From contig JAPLYG010000009.1 of the NCBI GenBank assembly GCA_026395685.1, positions 17,519 through 81,518 of the forward strand: a stretch of DNA of 64,000 bases, read 5' to 3'. Numbering within the stretch: position 1 is the stretch's first letter; each line of letters begins with the position of its first letter. The notes under the pieces are model-generated. The model saw only the letters and a list, made by a program, of their open reading frames with translations, searched no databases and was not told the origin of the DNA. The DNA comes from Candidatus Parcubacteria bacterium (GTDB lineage: Bacteria; Patescibacteriota; Patescibacteriia; CAIXNZ01). This document shows positions 6,335 to 51,853 of the stretch, piece by piece. Position numbers and translations under genes: made by a program.

Positions 6335-6703
6335 TTATTTTAGTGGCAATGCTTCACAAGCAGTACCGTCATTATCGCCGTCCAAACGGTTTGTGTCTTG
6401 ACTTGGTCCACCGGCATTTTTGAAAAACTTTTGGGCTTCTGGTTGAGTAGCAAAATCAGCGCAATTATATTCATCCGTGTATTTGCCGCCGCTTTCAACT
6501 ACATTGCCGCTTTTATCGCGCATTACCTTGGCTTCATTTAAGTTTGAACCTGATAACAATTTGCCCAAATCCCAGTCAGTATTAGATACTTCCAAGCCAA
6601 AAGCCGCTAAAAGAATAGCAATTGCCCCAATCAGTAATGGTTTAAGCACCTTTTTAGTACCTTCACTAGCATTAGCAAAGGGTTTTAATTTTGGAATAGC
6701 CAT
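6335..6703 (-). CDS. secreted/membrane-anchored Excalibur calcium-binding domain protein
   Basis: C-terminal [10 protein letters not shown] motif (Excalibur DxDxDGxxCE); N-terminal TM/signal. Confidence 0.6.
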
Positions 6704-6709
6704 AAATTT

Positions 6710-6802
6710 TTACCAAATTGAATATAAAAGATAGGCAGCTACCAGAATTAAAATCACGATAACCGCCAATCTAACTATTTTATTACCTCGAATTTTATTC
6801 AT
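6710..6802 (-). CDS. 30-aa single-TM mini-protein (MNKIRGNKIVRLAVIVILILVAAYLLYSIW), below ORF-track cutoff
   Basis: ATG sits 8 nt after a TGCTATAAT box; ends 6 nt before the Excalibur gene start. Confidence 0.25.
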   Translation of the reverse strand: MNKIRGNKIVRLAVIVILILVAAYLLYSIW

Positions 6803-6821
6803 ATGTTACTATTATAGCATG
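6803..6821 (-). promoter_or_regulatory. extended -10 (TGCTATAAT) 8 nt upstream of ATG; leaderless-type promoter
   Basis: Minus-strand reading catgcTATAATagtaacatATG. Confidence 0.4.
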
Positions 6822-13122: not shown

Positions 13123-14634
13123 TCAAAGATCAATTTTAAATAAGCCCATGCACAGCATCAAATAGCTGATCCCCAACGGATGGTTTAAATACGGGCTGAA
13201 AGCATGGGTTACCATTAAAACAATCAGACCAATTAAAAGACCAGCAACAATGTAATTTTTTCTTTGTTTCCAGCCTGCATACAATATTTGTCCAATCAAT
13301 AACAAATAAACAAATAAACCAATAAACCCAATCTCCGTCACTGTATCCAAATACCCCCATTCAAAACTGTAAGTTGTATAAGTCCCTTCCGGGTTCGCTT
13401 CATTTTTAATACGCGGATCTTCTGTCTTATATGTCACGGCACTGCCAAAACCAGTGCCGATAAAAGGCGCTTCCTTAACCTTCTCAACCAAAACCGGCAG
13501 TAAGTTCCAGCGGCTGGAAACCCCGGCTTCCCCGGAAATCATGGCAAAGCGGTCTTTGAACATATCAGCGGAAAACAGGCCCGAAGGCGTGGGAATTGGG
13601 AAATTGGCAATTGCCAGAACCAAAAGCACGCTTAATACTCCTGACGCCGCCAAAACACCGGCTGCCTGACATAATTTTTTCAGGCTTAATCTGGCTATAA
13701 AAATTAAATAAACCGCTAACGCCAAAACGCCGGCAAGGCCGCCGAGCCAGAAAGTGCGGGAAAAAGAAATTAATATAGAGGCTTCAATAAAAACCAAAAG
13801 CAAAAAAAGCCATTTGCCATCTTGTAGGGAACGTTCTAGAACGTTCCCTACGATAGATGGCTTTTTTTGTTGTTGAATAAAAAGCACTAATAGAGATAAA
13901 ATTATAAAAATCCCGATCAAGCTCCAGCTTTGCGACTGGAAAAATATCCTGAAAAAATTGCCGCCGGCATAGGTAATTTCCCCCACGCGCGTATCGCGAA
14001 TCCAGTGGTAAAAATAGTCGGTTATATAGGGTATGCCGTGAGAAAATAAATAAAGAGTAAAAAATATTTTGACTGAAACATAGCTTAAAGCCGCCAAAAA
14101 TACTTTCATAAACGCGGCGACTTGGCGTTTAGTTTTAAAAACCTCCAGAAAAACAAAGAAGAGGCCGAAGTATAAATAGCCGTTAACGTCAAAGAACACA
14201 TTTTTTATTCCATTGCCGGAAATTATTCCGTTAATAACTCCGAGCGCAATAAAACATAAAAAAATTATAAAATTTTGCACCAGTCTGTCTTTTTTCAACA
14301 AGTTGAAAAGATCGATAGGTCTAAAATATTTCAACAGCCAGACAAAAAAGACTATCAAAAATATCGCCAACCGCATTGATATTCTGAATCCCGGCAAGTC
14401 CAGGTAAAAAAGATACCCCTGCGACCCGATCATCAGTTCAGCTAAAGCAATCCAAAGGCCGTATTCCAGCTTATATAAAGTAAACATCAGCACCACAATC
14501 GCGATGGATACGAAAAATATCCCAGATAACAACGCTAATTTAAAGCTAATCAAGGAAAGTAACTCAATAACAAAGATGGCCATAATTAGCCTAAAAATAT
14601 CTTTATTTATTATGTTTTTATCAAAAATGGTCAT
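13123..14634 (-). CDS. O-antigen ligase/polymerase-like polytopic membrane protein
   Basis: ~12 TM helices with a large loop; sits next to a glycosyltransferase cluster. Confidence 0.5.
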   Translation of the reverse strand: MTIFDKNIINKDIFRLIMAIFVIELLSLISFKLALLSGIFFVSIAIVVLMFTLYKLEYGLWIALAELMIGSQGYLFYLDLPGFRISMRLAIFLIVFFVWLLKYFRPIDLFNLLKKDRLVQNFIIFLCFIALGVINGIISGNGIKNVFFDVNGYLYFGLFFVFLEVFKTKRQVAAFMKVFLAALSYVSVKIFFTLYLFSHGIPYITDYFYHWIRDTRVGEITYAGGNFFRIFFQSQSWSLIGIFIILSLLVLFIQQQKKPSIVGNVLERSLQDGKWLFLLLVFIEASILISFSRTFWLGGLAGVLALAVYLIFIARLSLKKLCQAAGVLAASGVLSVLLVLAIANFPIPTPSGLFSADMFKDRFAMISGEAGVSSRWNLLPVLVEKVKEAPFIGTGFGSAVTYKTEDPRIKNEANPEGTYTTYSFEWGYLDTVTEIGFIGLFVYLLLIGQILYAGWKQRKNYIVAGLLIGLIVLMVTHAFSPYLNHPLGISYLMLCMGLFKIDL

Positions 14635-14641
14635 TCAGGTC

Positions 14642-14670
14642 TTGACAAGGTTTTAAATATATGCTAACAT
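14642..14670 (+). promoter_or_regulatory. sigma70-like promoter (TTGACA-17-TAACAT, TGC-extended)
   Basis: cTTGACAaggttttaaatatatgcTAACATagtaacat on plus strand. Confidence 0.45.
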
Positions 14671-14677
14671 AGTAACA

Positions 14678-15020
14678 TAGCGCTGAACAGAGTGCGGCCT
14701 CTACGGAGTGTTCTCGCACCCATATCAGCCCTTCCGGCAAATCCACCGGATTGAATAACCTCCCCTGTAAAGGATACGGGGAGGTAAATAAAAAAATCAT
14801 ATTGAAGTGAGAAGGTTACTCGCTAAAAGCCAGTATCCAATGGACATAGGAAAATCATAACCTATGTTCACGCAAAGGACTACCTCGTCTTCCAGTATAA
14901 CTTGGAGTTTACTCCCAGTTGTGAAGATTCCTTTGCGGCTTCAATCTTAATTTCGATAAGGGATCCGGCGTAATAAAACGCCTACCCGATATTAAGAGGC
15001 AACCCCGGTGTGGCCTCTTT
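14678..15020 (+). ncRNA. candidate ~340 nt non-coding RNA (promoter-to-terminator unit without ORF)
   Basis: Plus-strand promoter at 14642-14670 and plus-oriented terminator at 14995-15022. Longest ATG ORF ~28 codons. Internal hairpin CCUCCCC...GGGGAGG. Both flanking genes are on the minus strand. Confidence 0.35.
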
Positions 15021-15024
15021 TTCT
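14993..15024 (+). terminator. rho-independent terminator (plus orientation)
   Basis: agaggc-aaccccggtgtg-gcctct followed by TTTTT. Confidence 0.6.
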
Positions 15025-15025
15025 A

Positions 15026-15895
15026 TTATATTTTTGACTGTGATTTAGGTCTGATTTTGAAAACCTGACTTACCCAAGCCAGCCCTAGACTGATATAACT
15101 TAACAACATTACGACTAAACAACTTAACAACCCGAAATGTTTCCTGAAGTAAATTGCCATTCCCCGATTAAACCGCTTCTGCTTTTCCAGGCTCATTTGC
15201 TGGGCAAAGCTTTTAGCTTCATGATGAATCAATTTAGTTTGCGGCATATACCAGATCTGATAGCCTTTATCTTGCGCCCGCTTGCATAAGTCCAAATCTT
15301 CCCACCATAGATAATAATCCTCATCCCAGCCGCCCAAGTCCTTAATCACTTCGTTTTTAACCAAAACAAAAGCGCCCATGATCTGCTTAACTTCCTGCTC
15401 TTTGGTATAATCAAAATCTTTAGCCAAATATTTTTTCAAACAACTTGGCTGCCAAAAATGATGCAGCTTTAATAAAATCAAAATCTGGTCGCAAAGGCCC
15501 GGATTATTTTTTATATTATTTTGCCTTAAACCGTCGGGATAAATTAGCTGGCAGGTTGCCATTTCGACTTTGGGGCTTGCTTCTAACCAATCAACTAAAA
15601 CCTTAAAGCTGTTTTCCACCAGCTCCATGTCCGGATTCATAAACAATATATATTTTCCCTGAGCCTGCTCTAATGCTAGGTTATTTGCCTTAGCAAAGCC
15701 CAAATTTTGATTGGAGGCAATCAAATTTACTTTAGGAAATTCAGAAGCGACCATTTGAACTGAACCGTCTTTAGACGCGTTATCAACCACAAAAACTTCA
15801 AAGTCCAAGCCTTGAGTCAACTTAAAAATCGACTGCAGATTTTTTCGCAGAAGGTCTTTAACATTCCAGCTGACGATGATAATTGATAATTGCAT
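15026..15895 (-). CDS. family 2 glycosyltransferase
   Basis: N-terminal LSIIIVSWN...VVDNASKDGS and DxD-containing GT-A fold signature. Confidence 0.8.
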   Translation of the reverse strand: MQLSIIIVSWNVKDLLRKNLQSIFKLTQGLDFEVFVVDNASKDGSVQMVASEFPKVNLIASNQNLGFAKANNLALEQAQGKYILFMNPDMELVENSFKVLVDWLEASPKVEMATCQLIYPDGLRQNNIKNNPGLCDQILILLKLHHFWQPSCLKKYLAKDFDYTKEQEVKQIMGAFVLVKNEVIKDLGGWDEDYYLWWEDLDLCKRAQDKGYQIWYMPQTKLIHHEAKSFAQQMSLEKQKRFNRGMAIYFRKHFGLLSCLVVMLLSYISLGLAWVSQVFKIRPKSQSKI

Positions 15896-32521: not shown

Positions 32522-32785
32522 TTATTTACTTTTTAGAGTCTTTAAATGGCTAATATGCCTTTCTATAATTGTATCAAATTTCTCGGGTTTAATGAAGCCG
32601 ATAATTGCATTATCACGGCAAAAGACCAAAAACTGATCCCCAGTCTTAATATTCATTTTCTTCCTGATTTCTTTAGGAATAACCACCTGTCCCCGTTCAC
32701 CAATGGTGGTCATGCCATATTGTTTAAGTTCAAACGTCATTTTTGAGGCCATAATTTTAATACTGAATATGTCCTCCTTCGCCAA
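32522..32785 (-). CDS. AbrB/SpoVT (MazE-like swapped-hairpin) DNA-binding protein
   Basis: TTIGERGQVVIPKEIRKKMNIKTGDQFLV pattern. Confidence 0.55.
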   Translation of the reverse strand: MAKEDIFSIKIMASKMTFELKQYGMTTIGERGQVVIPKEIRKKMNIKTGDQFLVFCRDNAIIGFIKPEKFDTIIERHISHLKTLKSK

Positions 32786-33221
32786 GGCTTCGAAGGACTT
32801 AAATAAGAAAAGTATGATTTATCATACTTTCAGTATATTCCTCATTTCCCAAAACGTCAAGAACAAAAAAACAAACCATTCTCAAGTCATTCAGAGCCCT
32901 TTGTCTCCATTTGCTCTTTTGACTCTTTAGCAAAATTAGCGTGGAATCCATAAACTGCGTTATATCACGCTATACTTTACAATGGTTTGGCCTTTTTATT
33001 TTTTCTTTCTAATTATTCCTTTTCTGATTTTTGAAGCAGGAATATCTTTCAGATGCTTAAAAAACTCAACCTGTTTAAGCCGATGCTGAGCCTCCTTCTT
33101 GGTTTGGTAACACCCAAAACTTCGGCTGGTTGTTTCCGAGACCACGCACCACTTGCCTGAGCGTTTGATGATCATACAATAAAATTTTTTAAATTTATAA
33201 TTTGTAATTTTAAATTTTATA

Positions 33222-41442: not shown

Positions 41443-41622
41443 ATATTTAAATTTTACTGGTTCGGCTTAGGCAGGCGGGTATGTTCTACCAGCTGAGCCT
41501 GGGGGGCATTGACAAGACATTAAACTTATGTAAAATATTTTATCAGAAAACAAAATAAATGTCAAAGCTTGGCTAAAATCCCAAATTTGATATAATAGAA
41601 TCACTATTTAAATTAACAAAGT

Positions 41623-48454: not shown

Positions 48455-48483
48455 TTGACAATGTTGACAATTTATGATAAATT
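48455..48483 (+). promoter_or_regulatory. tandem TTGACA -35 boxes plus TGATAAAT -10-like element; AAGGAGG SD at 48504-48510
   Basis: gtgaTTGACAatgTTGACAatttaTGATAAATt ... aAAGGAGGactttccATG. Confidence 0.4.
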
Positions 48484-48518: not shown

Positions 48519-49781
48519 ATGGATAATAACGGGAGTTTTTACCAGCAAGCCCAACGGCTGCAAGATGCGGCTTATGATGTCCGCAACCCCAAGATTCGGG
48601 AAGCCAGATTGATCATTGAACAGACCATTAAAGAAGAACTGCGGACTAAACCCAGGGAAGAAATCAAACAACTGCATTCCTGGAATATCGGCAACCCGCC
48701 TTATTTTGGCATCCAGCCGCCGGAAGAAATCAATCATTTGCTGCAGCAGATCCAGATCCAGTATGGCTATTCCCCGGCTCAGGGATTGGAACAGGCTATT
48801 GAGTCCATTTTCGCCTACCATCAGTCGCAAAAATTTATCAATCTCAAAAGAGAAAATATTTTCGGCACTGATGGCGTAAGTGAAGGCATTCGCCTTGTTA
48901 CTACGGCAACGCTTAATCCCGGGGACGAAATACTCCTGCCTACGCCCAATTATCCCCTTTGGCGCCTGTTTGTGCAGCAAGCCGGAGCCATTCCGGTTCA
49001 CTACCAGTGTGATGAAAAATCCTGCTGGTATCCGGATCTTGCCGATATCATCAGGAAAATCAGCGGCCGGACAAAAGCAATCTTGCTGATCAATCCCAAT
49101 AATCCGACCGGCGCAATTTATTCCCTGGAAATTTTGCAGCAGATTATCAGTATTGCTCGCGAGCACCGGCTAATCATCTTTGCTGATGAAGTCTATAACG
49201 AAGTGCTTTACGGCCAAGCCAAGCACATTCCGATTGCCTCGATTTCTGACGAGGTGCTGATTTTCACGCTTAATGGCCTGTCTAAAAACAGGCTCATGCC
49301 CGGCATTCGTTCCGGCTGGATTGCCATTAGCGGACCGACGCATCAGGCGCGTGACTTGATTAACGGCATTAACCTGCTTGTTAATGCCAGGCTGTGCCCG
49401 AATATCTACGGCCAATTGGCCATTCCCCTGATCCTCCCCCGCGCTGACTACCTCCGGCCGCTTTTAGTGCCTGGGGGACGATTCTTTGACCAGATTGAAG
49501 CAGCCAGCCAGGCAATCAATCAGTGCGAGGAGCTGTCTTGCGTCAAAGCTGATGCAACTATGTACCTTTACGTAAAGATCAACAGCCCGAATCACATTGC
49601 CAATGACGAGAAGTTCATTCTGGACCTGCTCAATGCTGAACGAGTTCAGCTTGTGCAGGGTACCGGCTTTGACGACAAAAATCTACCGCGGCATATCCGC
49701 ATTGTCTGTCTGGCGCCGGTGGCTGAACTGACCGAGGGCATCGGACGCATTATTAGGTTTCTGCAGAACTACAAAAACTAA
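48519..49781 (+). CDS. PLP-dependent class I/II aminotransferase (AlaA/AspC-like)
   Basis: LSKNRLMPGIRSGW lysine region; visibly higher GC than neighbours; the antisense ORF 48495-49166 looks spurious. Confidence 0.85.
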   Translation: MDNNGSFYQQAQRLQDAAYDVRNPKIREARLIIEQTIKEELRTKPREEIKQLHSWNIGNPPYFGIQPPEEINHLLQQIQIQYGYSPAQGLEQAIESIFAYHQSQKFINLKRENIFGTDGVSEGIRLVTTATLNPGDEILLPTPNYPLWRLFVQQAGAIPVHYQCDEKSCWYPDLADIIRKISGRTKAILLINPNNPTGAIYSLEILQQIISIAREHRLIIFADEVYNEVLYGQAKHIPIASISDEVLIFTLNGLSKNRLMPGIRSGWIAISGPTHQARDLINGINLLVNARLCPNIYGQLAIPLILPRADYLRPLLVPGGRFFDQIEAASQAINQCEELSCVKADATMYLYVKINSPNHIANDEKFILDLLNAERVQLVQGTGFDDKNLPRHIRIVCLAPVAELTEGIGRIIRFLQNYKN

Positions 49782-51253: not shown

Positions 51254-51360
51254 AAAATAAATTTAATAATCAATAATCAATCATCAATAACCATACAATT
51301 GCTAAATCCAAAATAGGATATTAGTAATTAATTATTAATGGCTGATGATTAAATAAAAAA
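51254..51360. repeat. family A repeat, partial copy
   Basis: aaataatcaataatcaatcatcaataacca ... taattattaatggctgatgattaaata. Confidence 0.4.
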
Positions 51361-51636
51361 TGGATCTCAAAATGATAAACCAAAAAAGCTATCATCCTGG
51401 GACCCATTTTTTTAATTAAGGGCGGTTCCACCCAAGTTGTCTCCATTGCCAAGGCTACGAAGACCTCTTTATTGCCTACAGCTCCCAGGGAGCCAAACCC
51501 CTGATCATCGCCGTGTCTGCTCTTATATTGTAATAAATCTTTAAACGTTTTGCAATTTACGTACTTTTATTTCCAAATCCGCCAGTTGTTTTTTTAAAAT
51601 TTCAATATCCCTATAGGCGGCTGATATATCCTCATC

Positions 51637-51843
51637 CTATGCCTTTCCTATACTATCCAGTCTTTGGCTGATTATTTTTAACTCAACCCTAATATCTGCC
51701 AACTCTTGTTTAATTGGCTCTAATTTTTCAGTCAGCTTGGAATCCAGCGCTGAATTAATAATTATTTCTATTTGTTTTAAATCCTCTTGTTCTAGCATAA
51801 AATTGCGTATTTTTATTATAGCAATAATATTTTTTTTAAACAA
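51637..51843 (-). CDS. small coiled-coil protein; in-frame TAG followed by 31 further coiled-coil-like codons (51544-51636)
   Basis: Hand translation after the stop reads DEDISAAYRDIEILKKQLADLEIKVRKLQNV*. Confidence 0.4.
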   Translation of the reverse strand: MFKKNIIAIIKIRNFMLEQEDLKQIEIIINSALDSKLTEKLEPIKQELADIRVELKIISQRLDSIGKA

Positions 51844-51853
51844 CTGACCTCAA

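What the first reader, a model, noticed from the sequence alone, without database searches (positions are those of the whole stretch)
14635..15025. Promoter-to-terminator unit (~340 nt) on the plus strand with no ORF: candidate structured ncRNA inside the glycan-synthesis cluster
Both flanking genes are on the minus strand, so this 390-bp gap is unusually long for the window. It contains a good plus-strand sigma70 promoter (TTGACA-17-TAACAT with TGC extension at 14642-14670). It also contains a plus-oriented intrinsic terminator (gaggc...gcctc + TTTTT at 14995-15022). The longest ATG ORF between them is ~28 codons. The interior is GC-richer and forms several hairpins (e.g. CCUCCCC-N12-GGGGAGG, GUGCGGCCUCUACGGAGUGUUCUCGCAC). 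I could not match it by eye to RNase P RNA, tmRNA, SRP RNA or 6S RNA consensus elements. The promoter motif ATGCTAACATAGTAACAT resembles the TGCTATAATAGTAACAT leaderless promoter at 6803-6821, which suggests a genuine promoter dialect.
Basis: partly seen in the sequence, partly recalled or inferred. Interest (0 to 1): 0.7.

Follow-up and report, generated by a model that had tools for sequence, protein, structure and literature searches.

The report
Orphan structured RNA gene cassette
A roughly 350-base stretch between two sugar-coat genes of an uncultured Parcubacteria bacterium looks like a self-contained gene for a highly folded, non-coding RNA with no known relatives, and it sits in a slot where related bacteria carry other, unrelated folded RNAs or tiny protein genes.

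Summary
Window 14642-15025 (+) has a full-consensus sigma-70 promoter with an extended -10. That pattern occurs 3 times in 64 kb against 0.02 expected, and one of the other two sites lies upstream of a tRNA gene. The body is GC-enriched and has no credible ORF. It folds far better than shuffles (z -7.4; the central 159-nt domain z -6.9). A modest hairpin plus U-run ends 3 nt before the stop codon of the convergent GT2 gene. There is no Rfam or ARAGORN match.

Context adds to this. In 12 of 13 related Parcubacteria loci, the slot between GT2 and the O-antigen-ligase-like gene holds one or two cassettes in the same orientation. All share the promoter architecture, with the -35 a few nt from the ligase ATG. 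Their bodies are unrelated: five other RNA types (two with compensatory base-pair changes) and two small proteins. One locus is empty.

The window's RNA ("W") is a singleton. I found no homologue in 1.4 Mb of related loci, or in phage, plasmid and viral collections. Covariation therefore cannot be tested, and no expression data were available.

Most likely it is a real, novel, independently transcribed structured ncRNA of unknown function that also interrupts operon read-through. Interest is moderate.

The parts
14642..14647 (+). -35 hexamer TTGACA, 7 nt from the ATG (14634-14632, minus strand) of the ligase-like gene
   Evidence: TTG.C is invariant in all 14 cassette promoters aligned.
14662..14670 (+). 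Extended -10 element TGC-TAACAT (17-nt spacer)
   Evidence: TG.TA...T is invariant across the 14 cassettes.
14676..15025 (+). Predicted transcript 'W', about 345-350 nt (start inferred at about 14677, 7 nt after the -10)
   Evidence: Fold -121.6 kcal/mol, z -7.35, 0 of 100 shuffles as stable. Stops in all six frames. No Rfam hit.
14679..14732 (+). 5' domain: helix GCGCUGA/UCAGC enclosing the hairpin GUGCGGCCUCUACGGAGUGUUCUCGCAC
   Evidence: Its own z is only -1.5. Weak, non-significant resemblance to the type A P1 3' strand.
14733..14750 (+). Hairpin 2 (UCCGG-N8-CCGGA)
14758..14785 (+). Hairpin 3 (CCUCCCC...GGGGAGG)
   Evidence: -17.1 kcal/mol, z -3.7, 0 of 200 shuffles.
14786..14799 (+). A-rich single-stranded linker (AAAUAAAAAAAUCA)
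   Evidence: Unpaired in both the MFE and the centroid structure.
14800..14958 (+). Central multi-branch domain: a 13-bp closing helix and three arms
   Evidence: z -6.9, 0 of 200 dinucleotide shuffles. The + strand gives -55.8 kcal/mol with 6 G-U pairs; the - strand gives -46.3.
14960..14987 (+). 3' hairpin (GGG..GGCGU-AAUAAA-ACGCC..CCC)
14994..15025 (+). Terminator-like hairpin AAGAGGC...GCCUCUU followed by UUUCU; ends 3 nt before the GT2 stop codon (15026-15028)
   Evidence: -10.6 kcal/mol, z -1.9. Not listed by the pattern scan because the loop exceeds 8 nt.
13123..14634 (-). Flanking gene: O-antigen-ligase / Wzy_C-like membrane protein, 503 aa (NCBI MCX6740028.1, annotated as 486 aa)
   Evidence: The N-terminal extension is conserved in relatives.
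15026..15895 (-). Flanking gene: family-2 glycosyltransferase, 289 aa (MCX6740029.1), convergent with the RNA unit

Best explanation
Window 14642-15025 (+) is a self-contained gene for an orphan structured non-coding RNA of about 350 nt, which I call 'W'.

How it is read to work:
- Sigma-70 RNA polymerase starts at a consensus promoter with an extended -10, whose -35 lies 7 nt from the start codon of the divergent ligase-like gene. Shown from sequence and conservation.
- The transcript folds into a 5' hairpin domain, two further hairpins, an A-rich linker, a 159-nt multi-branch domain closed by a 13-bp helix, and a 3' hairpin. It ends at a hairpin plus U-run just before the stop codon of the convergent GT2 gene. 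The fold is predicted.
- The RNA itself is the product. It is a stable, compact RNA that most likely acts in trans by binding a protein or ligand rather than by long antisense pairing. This step is inferred.

It is one allele of a hypervariable slot in the surface-glycan operon of this Parcubacteria lineage:
- Related genomes carry, at the same place and in the same orientation, the same promoter architecture with unrelated bodies. These are five other RNA types and two small proteins.
- Alleles appear to be exchanged by homologous recombination through the conserved GT2 and ligase flanks.

As a by-product, the convergent, strongly promoted cassette must collide with read-through from the GT genes into the ligase gene and the co-oriented dnaG and rpoD-like genes downstream (inferred).
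For: Promoter:
- Best site in 13-17 kb.
- The pattern TTGACA-N14-TGnTAnnnT occurs 3 times in 64 kb against 0.02 expected. One of the other two sites is upstream of tRNA-Thr.
- The promoter is nearly identical in the orthologous slot of L001, L089 and L094. Its key positions are invariant in all 14 cassettes.

Body:
- 44% G+C against 20-34% for the window's gaps without tRNA or probable coding sequence, similar to the tRNA-bearing gaps.
- z -7.35 for the whole RNA and -6.9 for the central domain, which is 9.5 kcal/mol more stable on the + strand because of 6 G-U pairs.

Not coding:
- Stops in all six frames. The longest ORFs are 28 codons on the + strand and 59 codons on the - strand.
- The 59-aa product has only 3 repeat-type hits to long proteins among 1.84 billion representatives.
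- NCBI protein accessions of the two flanking genes are consecutive, so no CDS is annotated between them.

Not a known RNA.

Context:
- 12 of 13 distinct orthologous loci have cassettes in the same orientation.
- Type A has 6 of 33 pairs with compensatory changes and type B has 11 of 70. Types D and E fold with z about -5.
- The two protein cassettes have AGGAGG Shine-Dalgarno sites in that orientation.
Against: - No homologue of the W body was found. Searched: 1.43 Mb of related loci, phage and plasmid collections, and three exact-pattern scans of viral contigs. So there is no covariation or conservation evidence for this RNA itself.
- No expression data were available.
- Overall the minus strand folds as well (z -5.8).
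- The terminator is weak and non-canonical.
- The slot can be empty (L081) and its content is interchangeable, so no particular RNA is essential. The body could be filler or a decayed remnant.
- Long perfect helices (10-13 bp) can also be young inverted repeats.
Confidence: 0.55

Rival explanations
1. Insulator or transcription-interference cassette. What matters is the strong convergent promoter abutting the ligase ATG, plus a terminator. RNA polymerase firing against the operon blocks or tunes read-through from the GT genes into the ligase gene and the dnaG and rpoD-like genes beyond it. The RNA body is largely arbitrary filler.
For: - The -35 lies a few nt from the ligase start codon in the cassettes that abut the ligase gene, whatever the body.
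- The ligase N-terminus is conserved up to that ATG, which leaves no room for a promoter of its own. No promoter-like site was found on the minus strand inside the gap.
- The bodies are unrelated and include proteins.
- In the empty allele, L081, the GT2 stop abuts the ligase start as in an ordinary operon.
Against: - Filler would not be GC-enriched or fold at z -7.
- Filler would not keep helices through compensatory changes, as types A and B do.
- The common orientation may simply be inherited with the shared promoter.
- This explanation can hold alongside the best explanation rather than replace it.
Confidence: 0.17
2. Decayed or rearranged relic of the 'type A' slot RNA. The promoter and perhaps a vestige of the 5' closing helix (GCUGA...UCAGCCC) survive, but the functional core was lost and the remainder is non-functional.
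For: - The closest relatives (L001, L085, L089, L094) carry type A behind a near-identical promoter.
- W begins with GCGCUGA paired to UCAGC, as type A begins with GGCUGAGA paired to UCUCAGCC.
- The local similarity CAUAUCAGCCCUUCCG versus CAUCUCAGCCCGGCCG ranks third window-wide (E 5.1).
Against: - The type A profile does not detect W.
- The best pairwise local alignment maps the same W segment to a different part of type A (4 of 300 shuffles reach its score, uncorrected for eight comparisons).
- A weak nhmmer hit was not reproduced on the bodies alone.
- About 290 nt of W have no counterpart in type A, yet that part is the most strongly structured (z -6.5 to -7.7). That is not expected of drifting sequence in a genome whose intergenic DNA is about 30% G+C.
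Confidence: 0.12
3. Sensor-controlled antisense driver. W is a ligand- or protein-responsive leader whose weak terminator is conditionally read through. Polymerase then runs antisense into GT2 and the glycan operon and represses it. This resembles riboswitch-controlled antisense RNAs known from Listeria (AspocR) and Clostridium (my background knowledge).
For: - The terminator is marginal (-10.6 kcal/mol, z -1.9) and abuts the stop codon of the convergent GT2 gene.
- A complex structured domain lies upstream of it.
Against: - Other cassettes in the slot end with strong terminators. L001 carries several hairpins upstream of its terminator, one also followed by a U-run. That argues for insulation of GT2 rather than regulated read-through.
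- There is no known aptamer match.
- I could identify no alternative anti-terminator pairing without homologues.
Confidence: 0.07
4. Minus-strand element. The structured region is part of the GT2-ligase polycistronic mRNA, for example an intercistronic processing or stabilising element or a leader of the ligase gene.
For: - The minus strand folds about as well overall (z -5.8).
- The ligase gene has no recognisable promoter of its own, so the gap is probably transcribed on the minus strand too.
Against: - The promoter, the U-run after the terminal hairpin, and the Shine-Dalgarno plus ORF of the protein cassettes all point the other way in every allele.
- The central domain is 9.5 kcal/mol weaker on the minus strand.
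- Types B and C rely on many conserved G-U pairs that would be A-C on the minus strand.
- The element is absent in L081.
Confidence: 0.05
5. Small-protein gene: either the 28-codon plus-strand ORF (14864-14950) or the 59-codon minus-strand ORF (14621-14800).
For: - ORFs exist.
- The same slot carries genuine small protein genes in L086 and L088.
Against: - No Shine-Dalgarno sequence precedes either ORF, unlike the AGGAGG of the L086 and L088 cassettes.
- The 28-codon ORF lies inside predicted helices.
- The 59-aa product has no small-protein homologue among 1.84 billion representatives, and the library has no entry for it.
- No CDS is annotated there by NCBI.
Confidence: 0.03

Closest known systems
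Orphan structured ncRNAs found in GC-rich intergenic regions of AT-rich bacteria (Breaker-lab GC-IGR approach; e.g. raiA, OLE, ROOL, GOLLD; PMC8632094, PMC11109978)
   Same: - A long intergenic region with G+C well above the intergenic background.
- Its own promoter and terminator, no ORF, a complex multi-helix fold, and unknown function.
   Different: - No match to any of these families in Rfam 15, even at E<=10.
- Only one representative is known, so it lacks the covariation support those classes have.
- It is smaller than OLE, ROOL or GOLLD.
'Type A' slot RNA of related Parcubacteria (unnamed; L001, L085, L089, L094/L095)
   Same: - Same slot and same orientation, with a near-identical promoter.
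- The transcript starts with a GCUGA helix closed by UCAGC and ends at an intrinsic terminator before the GT2 stop.
   Different: - The type A core is absent: the GAUGGG/CCCAUC helix, the hairpin tipped by the palindrome GUGCAC, and GGGCAnCCGCCUCG.
- Sequence-profile searches with type A do not find W.
ncRNAs transcribed against polysaccharide or operon genes (cis-antisense sRNAs of Bacteroides PULs; riboswitch-driven antisense RNAs such as Listeria AspocR). From my background knowledge; not checked in the paper library.
   Same: An RNA gene placed inside a glycan gene cluster and transcribed opposite to it. Convergent transcription could modulate the operon.
   Different: W overlaps no coding sequence. 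It starts 43 nt from the ligase ATG and ends before the GT2 stop, so any antisense action would be on the intercistronic transcript only, or would need terminator read-through.
Housekeeping RNAs of similar size (RNase P RNA, tmRNA, SRP RNA, 6S RNA)
   Same: Size range, a strong constitutive-type promoter, and a compact fold.
   Different: - No Rfam or ARAGORN hit.
- A related Parcubacteria contig has a normal class A RNase P RNA at 175 bits, so the models do work in this lineage.
- The RNA is dispensable across relatives.
Cassette arrays at a fixed genomic site (e.g. integron gene cassettes)
   Same: Interchangeable, sometimes tandem, short cassettes at one conserved position.
   Different: - No integrase or attC-like site was seen in the flanks examined.
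- Each cassette has its own promoter and terminator.
- The D-C junction in L083/L093 carries remnants of the GT2 3' end and the ligase 5' end, which points to homologous recombination through the flanks.

Membership tests
Any Rfam 15 family (4227 models, including RNase P, SRP, 6S, tmRNA, riboswitches, OLE, ROOL, GOLLD, raiA, HEARO, Y RNA-like) | Covariance-model score at or above the family's gathering threshold | tested here: not met
   The whole window at gathering score gave only 5 tRNAs. The region 14500-15150 at E<=10 gave one spurious 12.8-bit CRISPR-DR22 hit on the promoter.
tmRNA | tRNA-like ends and a tag reading frame detectable by ARAGORN | tested here: not met
   ARAGORN finds 5 tRNAs and no tmRNA in the window.
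Independent sigma-70 transcription unit (ncRNA gene) | Promoter with -35, 17-nt spacer and extended -10, beyond chance and conserved | tested here: met
   10/12 match with TG. The strict pattern occurs 3 times against 0.02 expected. It is conserved in orthologous slots.
Independent sigma-70 transcription unit (ncRNA gene) | Intrinsic terminator (a stable GC-rich hairpin followed by a U-run) at the 3' end | tested here: inconclusive
   The hairpin is -10.6 kcal/mol with a 12-nt interior, z -1.9, and is followed by UUUCU. The consensus scan did not list it.
Independent sigma-70 transcription unit (ncRNA gene) | Detectable transcript with defined 5' and 3' ends | not testable with these tools
   No transcriptome data were accessible.
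Structured ncRNA (conserved structure) | Thermodynamic stability beyond composition | tested here: met
   z -7.35 for the whole RNA and z -6.9 for the central domain, with 0 of 200 dinucleotide shuffles as stable.
Structured ncRNA (conserved structure) | Covariation (compensatory changes) among homologues | not testable with these tools
   No homologue of the W body was found.
Type A slot RNA of related Parcubacteria | Position, orientation and promoter | tested here: met
Type A slot RNA of related Parcubacteria | Conserved core (P1 GGCUGAGA/UCUCAGCC, GAUGGG/CCCAUC, GUGCAC-tipped hairpin) detectable by profile | tested here: not met
   nhmmer with the type A profiles finds all type A members at E<=1e-47 but not W. 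Only a non-significant match to the P1 3' strand was seen (E 5.1).
Riboswitch / cis-regulatory 5' leader | A downstream gene on the same strand under its control | tested here: not met
   The next plus-strand feature after the terminator is the 3' end of the convergent GT2 gene.
Cis-antisense RNA | Overlap with a gene or UTR on the opposite strand | tested here: inconclusive
   There is no overlap with either CDS: the predicted start at about 14677 against the ligase ATG at 14634, and the end at about 15022 against the GT2 stop at 15026. W would be antisense only to a GT2-ligase read-through transcript, whose existence is not shown.
Small-protein gene | An ORF with a ribosome-binding site and homologues | tested here: not met
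   Longest ORFs are 28 and 59 codons with no Shine-Dalgarno sequence. There is no small-protein homologue.
MITE / REP-type repeat | Multiple dispersed copies in the genome | tested here: inconclusive
   There is no second copy in the 64-kb window or in the related loci. The rest of the source genome could not be searched.

The most novel reading that the evidence does not exclude
The GT2/ligase junction of this Parcubacteria lineage is a dedicated exchange slot for strongly expressed structured RNAs. At least six unrelated RNA classes (A-E and W), none in Rfam, share one promoter architecture and are swapped by homologous recombination inside the surface-glycan operon. W would be a new RNA class with a strain-specific role, for example control of surface glycan expression, or host or phage interaction in an episymbiont.
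Probability: 0.25. Interest if true: 0.8.

Novelty: new variant of a known kind. Interest (0 to 1): 0.55.

Why it matters
Patescibacteria (CPR) have tiny genomes and few known regulators, and little non-coding DNA is expected to persist without function. A strongly promoted, highly folded 350-nt RNA with no known family would add a new RNA class to a poorly understood phylum. It sits in the operon that builds the cell-surface glycan, which is the interface with host and phage. The wider pattern found here may matter more than W itself. One conserved slot holds at least six unrelated structured RNAs and two small proteins, all behind the same promoter architecture. That gives a set of comparable natural alleles for asking what such RNAs do and how they are exchanged. 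If the cassette merely insulates the operon, it would still be an unusual way of wiring an operon that runs on towards dnaG and an rpoD-like gene.

Tried and rejected
- Rfam at gathering score and at E<=10 on the window region, and on L001 and six related loci, gave nothing but tRNAs, generic terminator look-alikes and one RNase P RNA elsewhere. ARAGORN found no tmRNA.
- An exact look-up of the GT2 protein returned no contig.
- blastn and nhmmer of W against 95 fetched loci (1.43 Mb) matched only the promoter in L001. A weak 12.6-bit hit in the body was not reproduced when the bodies alone were compared.
- Type A and type B profiles against the window gave no hit at the locus.
- Short profiles of the type A P1 strands gave a third-ranked, non-significant hit at 14721-14736.
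- Smith-Waterman alignment against all types with shuffles gave only L094 as marginal (4 of 300 shuffles), and it aligns to a different segment than the P1 idea requires.
- blastn (distant mode) against the phage and plasmid collections found nothing.
- Three exact-pattern scans of viral contigs (two from W, one from type A) found nothing.
- Look-ups of P0133 and P0122, two of the GT2 proteins closest to the window's, returned no DNA.
- Self-BLAST of W against the window found no second copy and no extended antisense target.
- The CsrB-like idea (GGA motifs in loops) was rejected by eye: I counted about 9 GGA triplets, mostly inside stems.
- A leaderless mRNA was rejected: there is no ATG, GTG or TTG at the predicted start.
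- The 59-aa minus-strand ORF has no real homologue.
- Literature searches for CPR or Parcubacteria ncRNAs at glycan loci found nothing relevant.
- One promoter pattern search was mis-spaced and missed the site. It was corrected.
Full report
**1. What is in the sequence**

The window comes from an uncultured Parcubacteria (CPR/Patescibacteria) MAG.
- Its DnaG is 76% identical to that of a contig labelled as a Lac Pavin Parcubacteria MAG (L001). More distant matches include Uhrbacteria and Buchananbacteria MAGs.
- The two flanking proteins are NCBI MCX6740028.1 and MCX6740029.1, on a 164,633-nt contig.

The gap 14635-15025 lies between two minus-strand genes.
- One encodes a 503-aa membrane protein whose homologues carry Wzy_C/PF04932 and are named O-antigen ligase family.
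- The other encodes a 289-aa family-2 glycosyltransferase. Two GT1/GT4 glycosyltransferase genes lie beyond it, and dnaG lies on the other side of the ligase gene.

- It reads TTGACA (14642-14647), a 17-nt spacer ending in TGC, then TAACAT (14665-14670). It is the best site in 13-17 kb.
- The combined pattern TTGACA-N14-TGnTAnnnT occurs three times in the 64-kb window against 0.02 expected.
- One of the other two sites lies about 95 nt upstream of tRNA-Thr. This is therefore the promoter type this organism uses for highly expressed stable RNA.

The 3' hairpin exists but is modest.
- It folds at -10.6 kcal/mol with z -1.9, around a 12-nt interior, and is followed by UUUCU. The pattern scan therefore missed it.
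- It ends 3 nt before the GT2 stop codon.

All six frames are full of stops. The longest ORFs are 28 codons on the + strand and 59 codons on the - strand.

**2. Is it more than chance?**

- The gap is 44% G+C. The window's gaps that hold no tRNA or probable coding sequence are 20-34%, and tRNA-bearing gaps are 34-46%.
- The predicted 350-nt transcript folds at -121.6 kcal/mol, z -7.35, with 0 of 100 shuffles as stable.
- The signal sits mainly in a 159-nt multi-branch domain (14800-14958; z -6.9, 0 of 200 shuffles) and in the CCUCCCC...GGGGAGG hairpin (z -3.7). The 5' domain alone is unremarkable (z -1.5).
- The reverse strand folds about as well overall (z -5.8). However, the central domain is 9.5 kcal/mol more stable on the + strand because of six G-U pairs.
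- Strand assignment therefore rests mainly on the promoter, the U-run and the comparative context.

**3. Known families**

- Rfam 15 at gathering score finds only five tRNAs in the window. At E<=10 on the region it finds one spurious 12.8-bit hit.
- ARAGORN finds no tmRNA.
- A related Parcubacteria contig (L005) gives a normal class A RNase P RNA at 175 bits, so the models do work in this lineage.

**4. Comparative context, the main new result**

I retrieved orthologous loci through DnaG, the ligase-like protein and GT2 from genome, metagenome and assembly collections. This gave 13 distinct GT2-ligase junctions. One, L081, is empty: the GT2 stop abuts the ligase start, as in an ordinary operon. 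The other 12 hold one or two cassettes, all transcribed opposite to the operon. Each cassette has a TTGAC(A)-17-TGnTAnnnT promoter and a terminator. In the alignment of all 14 cassette promoters those promoter positions are invariant. In the cassettes that abut the ligase gene the -35 lies a few nt from its ATG.

The bodies fall into unrelated groups:

| Type | Loci | Notes |
|---|---|---|
| A | L001, L085, L089, L094/95 | about 360-510 nt |
| B | L084, L085, L086/87 | about 250 nt |
| C | L083/93, L090/91, L092 | about 225 nt |
| D | L083/93 | 228 nt |
| E | L082 | 131 nt |
| W | the window | 349 nt |
| Protein | L088 | 92-aa PQ-loop/SemiSWEET-like protein, AGGAGG ribosome-binding site |
| Protein | L086 | 94-aa protein with no Pfam match, AGGAGG ribosome-binding site |

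The protein cassettes are documented.

- None of the RNA types matches Rfam.
- Type A keeps its helices through compensatory changes (6 of 33 pairs in four sequences). It has an invariant palindromic GUGCAC hairpin tip.
- Type B has 11 of 70 compensatory pairs in three sequences.
- Type C is too conserved to test but uses many G-U pairs.
- Types D and E fold with z about -5.
- The junction between the two cassettes of L083/L093 retains short remnants of the GT2 3' end and the ligase 5' end. This points to allele exchange by homologous recombination through the conserved flanks rather than site-specific insertion.

**5. Where W stands**

- W has the promoter of type A, nearly base for base with L001, L089 and L094.
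- Like types A, D and E, it begins with a GCUG(A) helix.
- Its body is nevertheless an orphan. Type A and B profiles do not find it.
- The resemblance of CAUAUCAGCCCUUCCG to the type A P1 3' strand is not significant window-wide (E 5.1).
- The best pairwise local alignment maps the same segment to another part of type A (4 of 300 shuffles reach its score, before correcting for eight comparisons).
- An early weak nhmmer hit to L001 was not reproducible.
- W is absent from the phage and plasmid collections and from IMG/VR by exact patterns. It has no second copy in the window.
- Hence no covariation test of W itself is possible with what I could fetch.

**6. Coding potential**

- No start codon sits at the predicted transcript start, and no Shine-Dalgarno sequence precedes either ORF.
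- The 59-aa minus-strand product hits only three long repeat-type proteins among 1.84 billion representatives.
- NCBI annotates no CDS between the flanks, as their protein accessions are consecutive.

**7. Interpretation**

The best-supported reading (about 0.55) is that W is a genuine, independently and probably strongly transcribed gene for a structured ncRNA of a so far undescribed class. It would be one allele of a hypervariable cassette slot.
- Shown: the promoter's quality and conservation, the lack of coding capacity, the GC enrichment, the exceptional predicted stability, and the comparative precedent of covarying RNAs in the same slot and orientation.
- Inferred: transcription, the 5' and 3' ends, the stability of the RNA, and action in trans through its fold.

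The geometry raises a question. The -35 abuts the ligase ATG, and there is no room and no recognisable site for a ligase promoter. So the cassette must interfere with, or replace, read-through from the GT genes into the ligase gene and the genes beyond it.

The rivals are:

| Rival reading | Confidence | Main objection or note |
|---|---|---|
| The insulator or interference effect is the selected function | 0.17 | Compatible with the main reading rather than exclusive |
| Decayed relic of type A | 0.12 | The most structured 290 nt have no type A counterpart |
| Sensor-controlled antisense driver through the weak terminator | 0.07 | Other cassettes end with strong terminators |
| Minus-strand intercistronic element | 0.05 | Promoter, U-run and protein cassettes all point the other way |
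| Small-protein gene | 0.03 | No ribosome-binding site and no homologue |

**8. Novelty and verdict**

As a kind of object, a promoter-to-terminator structured ncRNA in a GC-rich intergenic region is known (compare PMC8632094 and PMC11109978). As a family it is new and currently a singleton. The slot that exchanges unrelated structured RNAs behind one promoter inside a glycan operon is, to my knowledge and from the literature searches, undescribed. Interest is moderate at 0.55. The candidate is credible and the locus-level pattern is intriguing, but there is no expression evidence, no homologue and no function.

Noticed in passing
L001:1234-1449(-), L085:3757-3988(-), L089:1054-1287(-), L094:2432-2621(-): 'Type A' slot RNA, a structured RNA of about 190-235 nt core length that is not in Rfam. 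It has P1 GGCUGAGA/UCUCAGCC, a helix GAUGGG/CCCAUC, a hairpin whose stem covaries while its tip GUGCAC (a palindrome, so a possible kissing-loop dimerisation site) is invariant, and a variable 3' extension. 6 of 33 pairs are compensatory in 4 sequences.
   Followed up: partly
L084:1007-1261(-), L085:3328-3576(-), L086:3315-3560(-): 'Type B' slot RNA, about 250 nt, with its 5' and 3' ends closed by a 10-bp helix. 11 of 70 predicted pairs have compensatory changes in only three sequences. No Rfam match.
   Followed up: partly
L093:2403-2626(-), L090:995-1218(-), L092:910-1131(-); L093:2731-2958(-); L082:3810-3940(-): Three further unrelated cassette RNAs in the same slot: type C (about 225 nt), type D (228 nt, z -5.3) and type E (131 nt, z -5.0). 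None is in Rfam.
   Followed up: partly
L083:3660-3730(-) = L093:2660-2730(-); L085:3580-3630(-): In L083/L093, the junction between the two tandem cassettes contains a roughly 45-nt copy of the GT2 3' end followed by about 20 nt of the ligase 5' end. This implies that whole alleles were joined by recombination through the flanks. The junction in L085 was not examined for such remnants.
   Followed up: partly
L084:927-1006, L089:841-916 (also L085:3244-3328 and L094:2160-2210): Between the cassette terminator and the GT2 stop, several alleles carry a roughly 76-nt imperfect palindrome or repeat block built from ATCTGTAGAT- and ATTCGTAGAT-like units. It is absent from the window and its function is unknown.
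   Followed up: partly
L088:3643-3921(-); L086:3657-3941(-): In two relatives the slot holds small protein genes instead of, or beside, an RNA. One is a 92-aa PQ-loop/SemiSWEET-like membrane protein (PF04193, E 1.3e-6). The other is a 94-aa protein with no Pfam match. Both have AGGAGG ribosome-binding sites.
   Followed up: partly
window 14583-14634 (-): The NCBI model of the ligase-like protein (486 aa) probably starts 17 codons too late. The N-terminal extension (..KDIFRLIMAIFVIE) is conserved in L081 and L082, where the internal Met is Leu.
   Followed up: partly
window 6710-6802 (-): A 30-codon ORF, MNKIRGNKIVRLAVIVILILVAAYLLYSIW, starts 8 nt after a perfect extended -10 (TGCTATAAT). It is a candidate leaderless small membrane peptide just upstream of the 122-aa ORF 6335-6703.
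   Followed up: no
window 41445-41565 (-): A full-consensus promoter (41565-41537) lies about 95 nt upstream of tRNA-Thr. The spacer contains a tRNA-like 5' fragment (GCCCCCCAGGCUCAGCUGGUAGAAC...) that neither ARAGORN nor Rfam calls. It may be a tRNA remnant or an interrupted tRNA.
   Followed up: no
window 48455-48483 (+): The third full-consensus promoter in the window (TTGACAATGTTGACAATTTATGATAAATT, with a duplicated TTGACAAT) lies upstream of the plus-strand ORF 48519-49781.
   Followed up: no
window 51254-51853: A 600-nt gap that folds well on both strands (z about -5 against mononucleotide shuffles). It contains only a 68-codon TTG ORF (51637-51843, minus strand) and shorter ORFs of up to 56 codons. 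Unexplained.
   Followed up: no
window 32522-32785 (-) and 32996-33175 (-): The 1.08-kb 'gap' next to tRNA-Glu holds small ORFs. One is an 87-aa ORF whose sequence looks AbrB/SpoVT-like by eye (..GQVVIPKEIRKKMNIKTGD..). Another is a basic 59-aa ORF. Neither was checked against Pfam.
   Followed up: no
L005:19857-20343 (+): A related Parcubacteria contig has a class A RNase P RNA that spans 487 nt against a 367-position model, so it carries large insertions.
   Followed up: no
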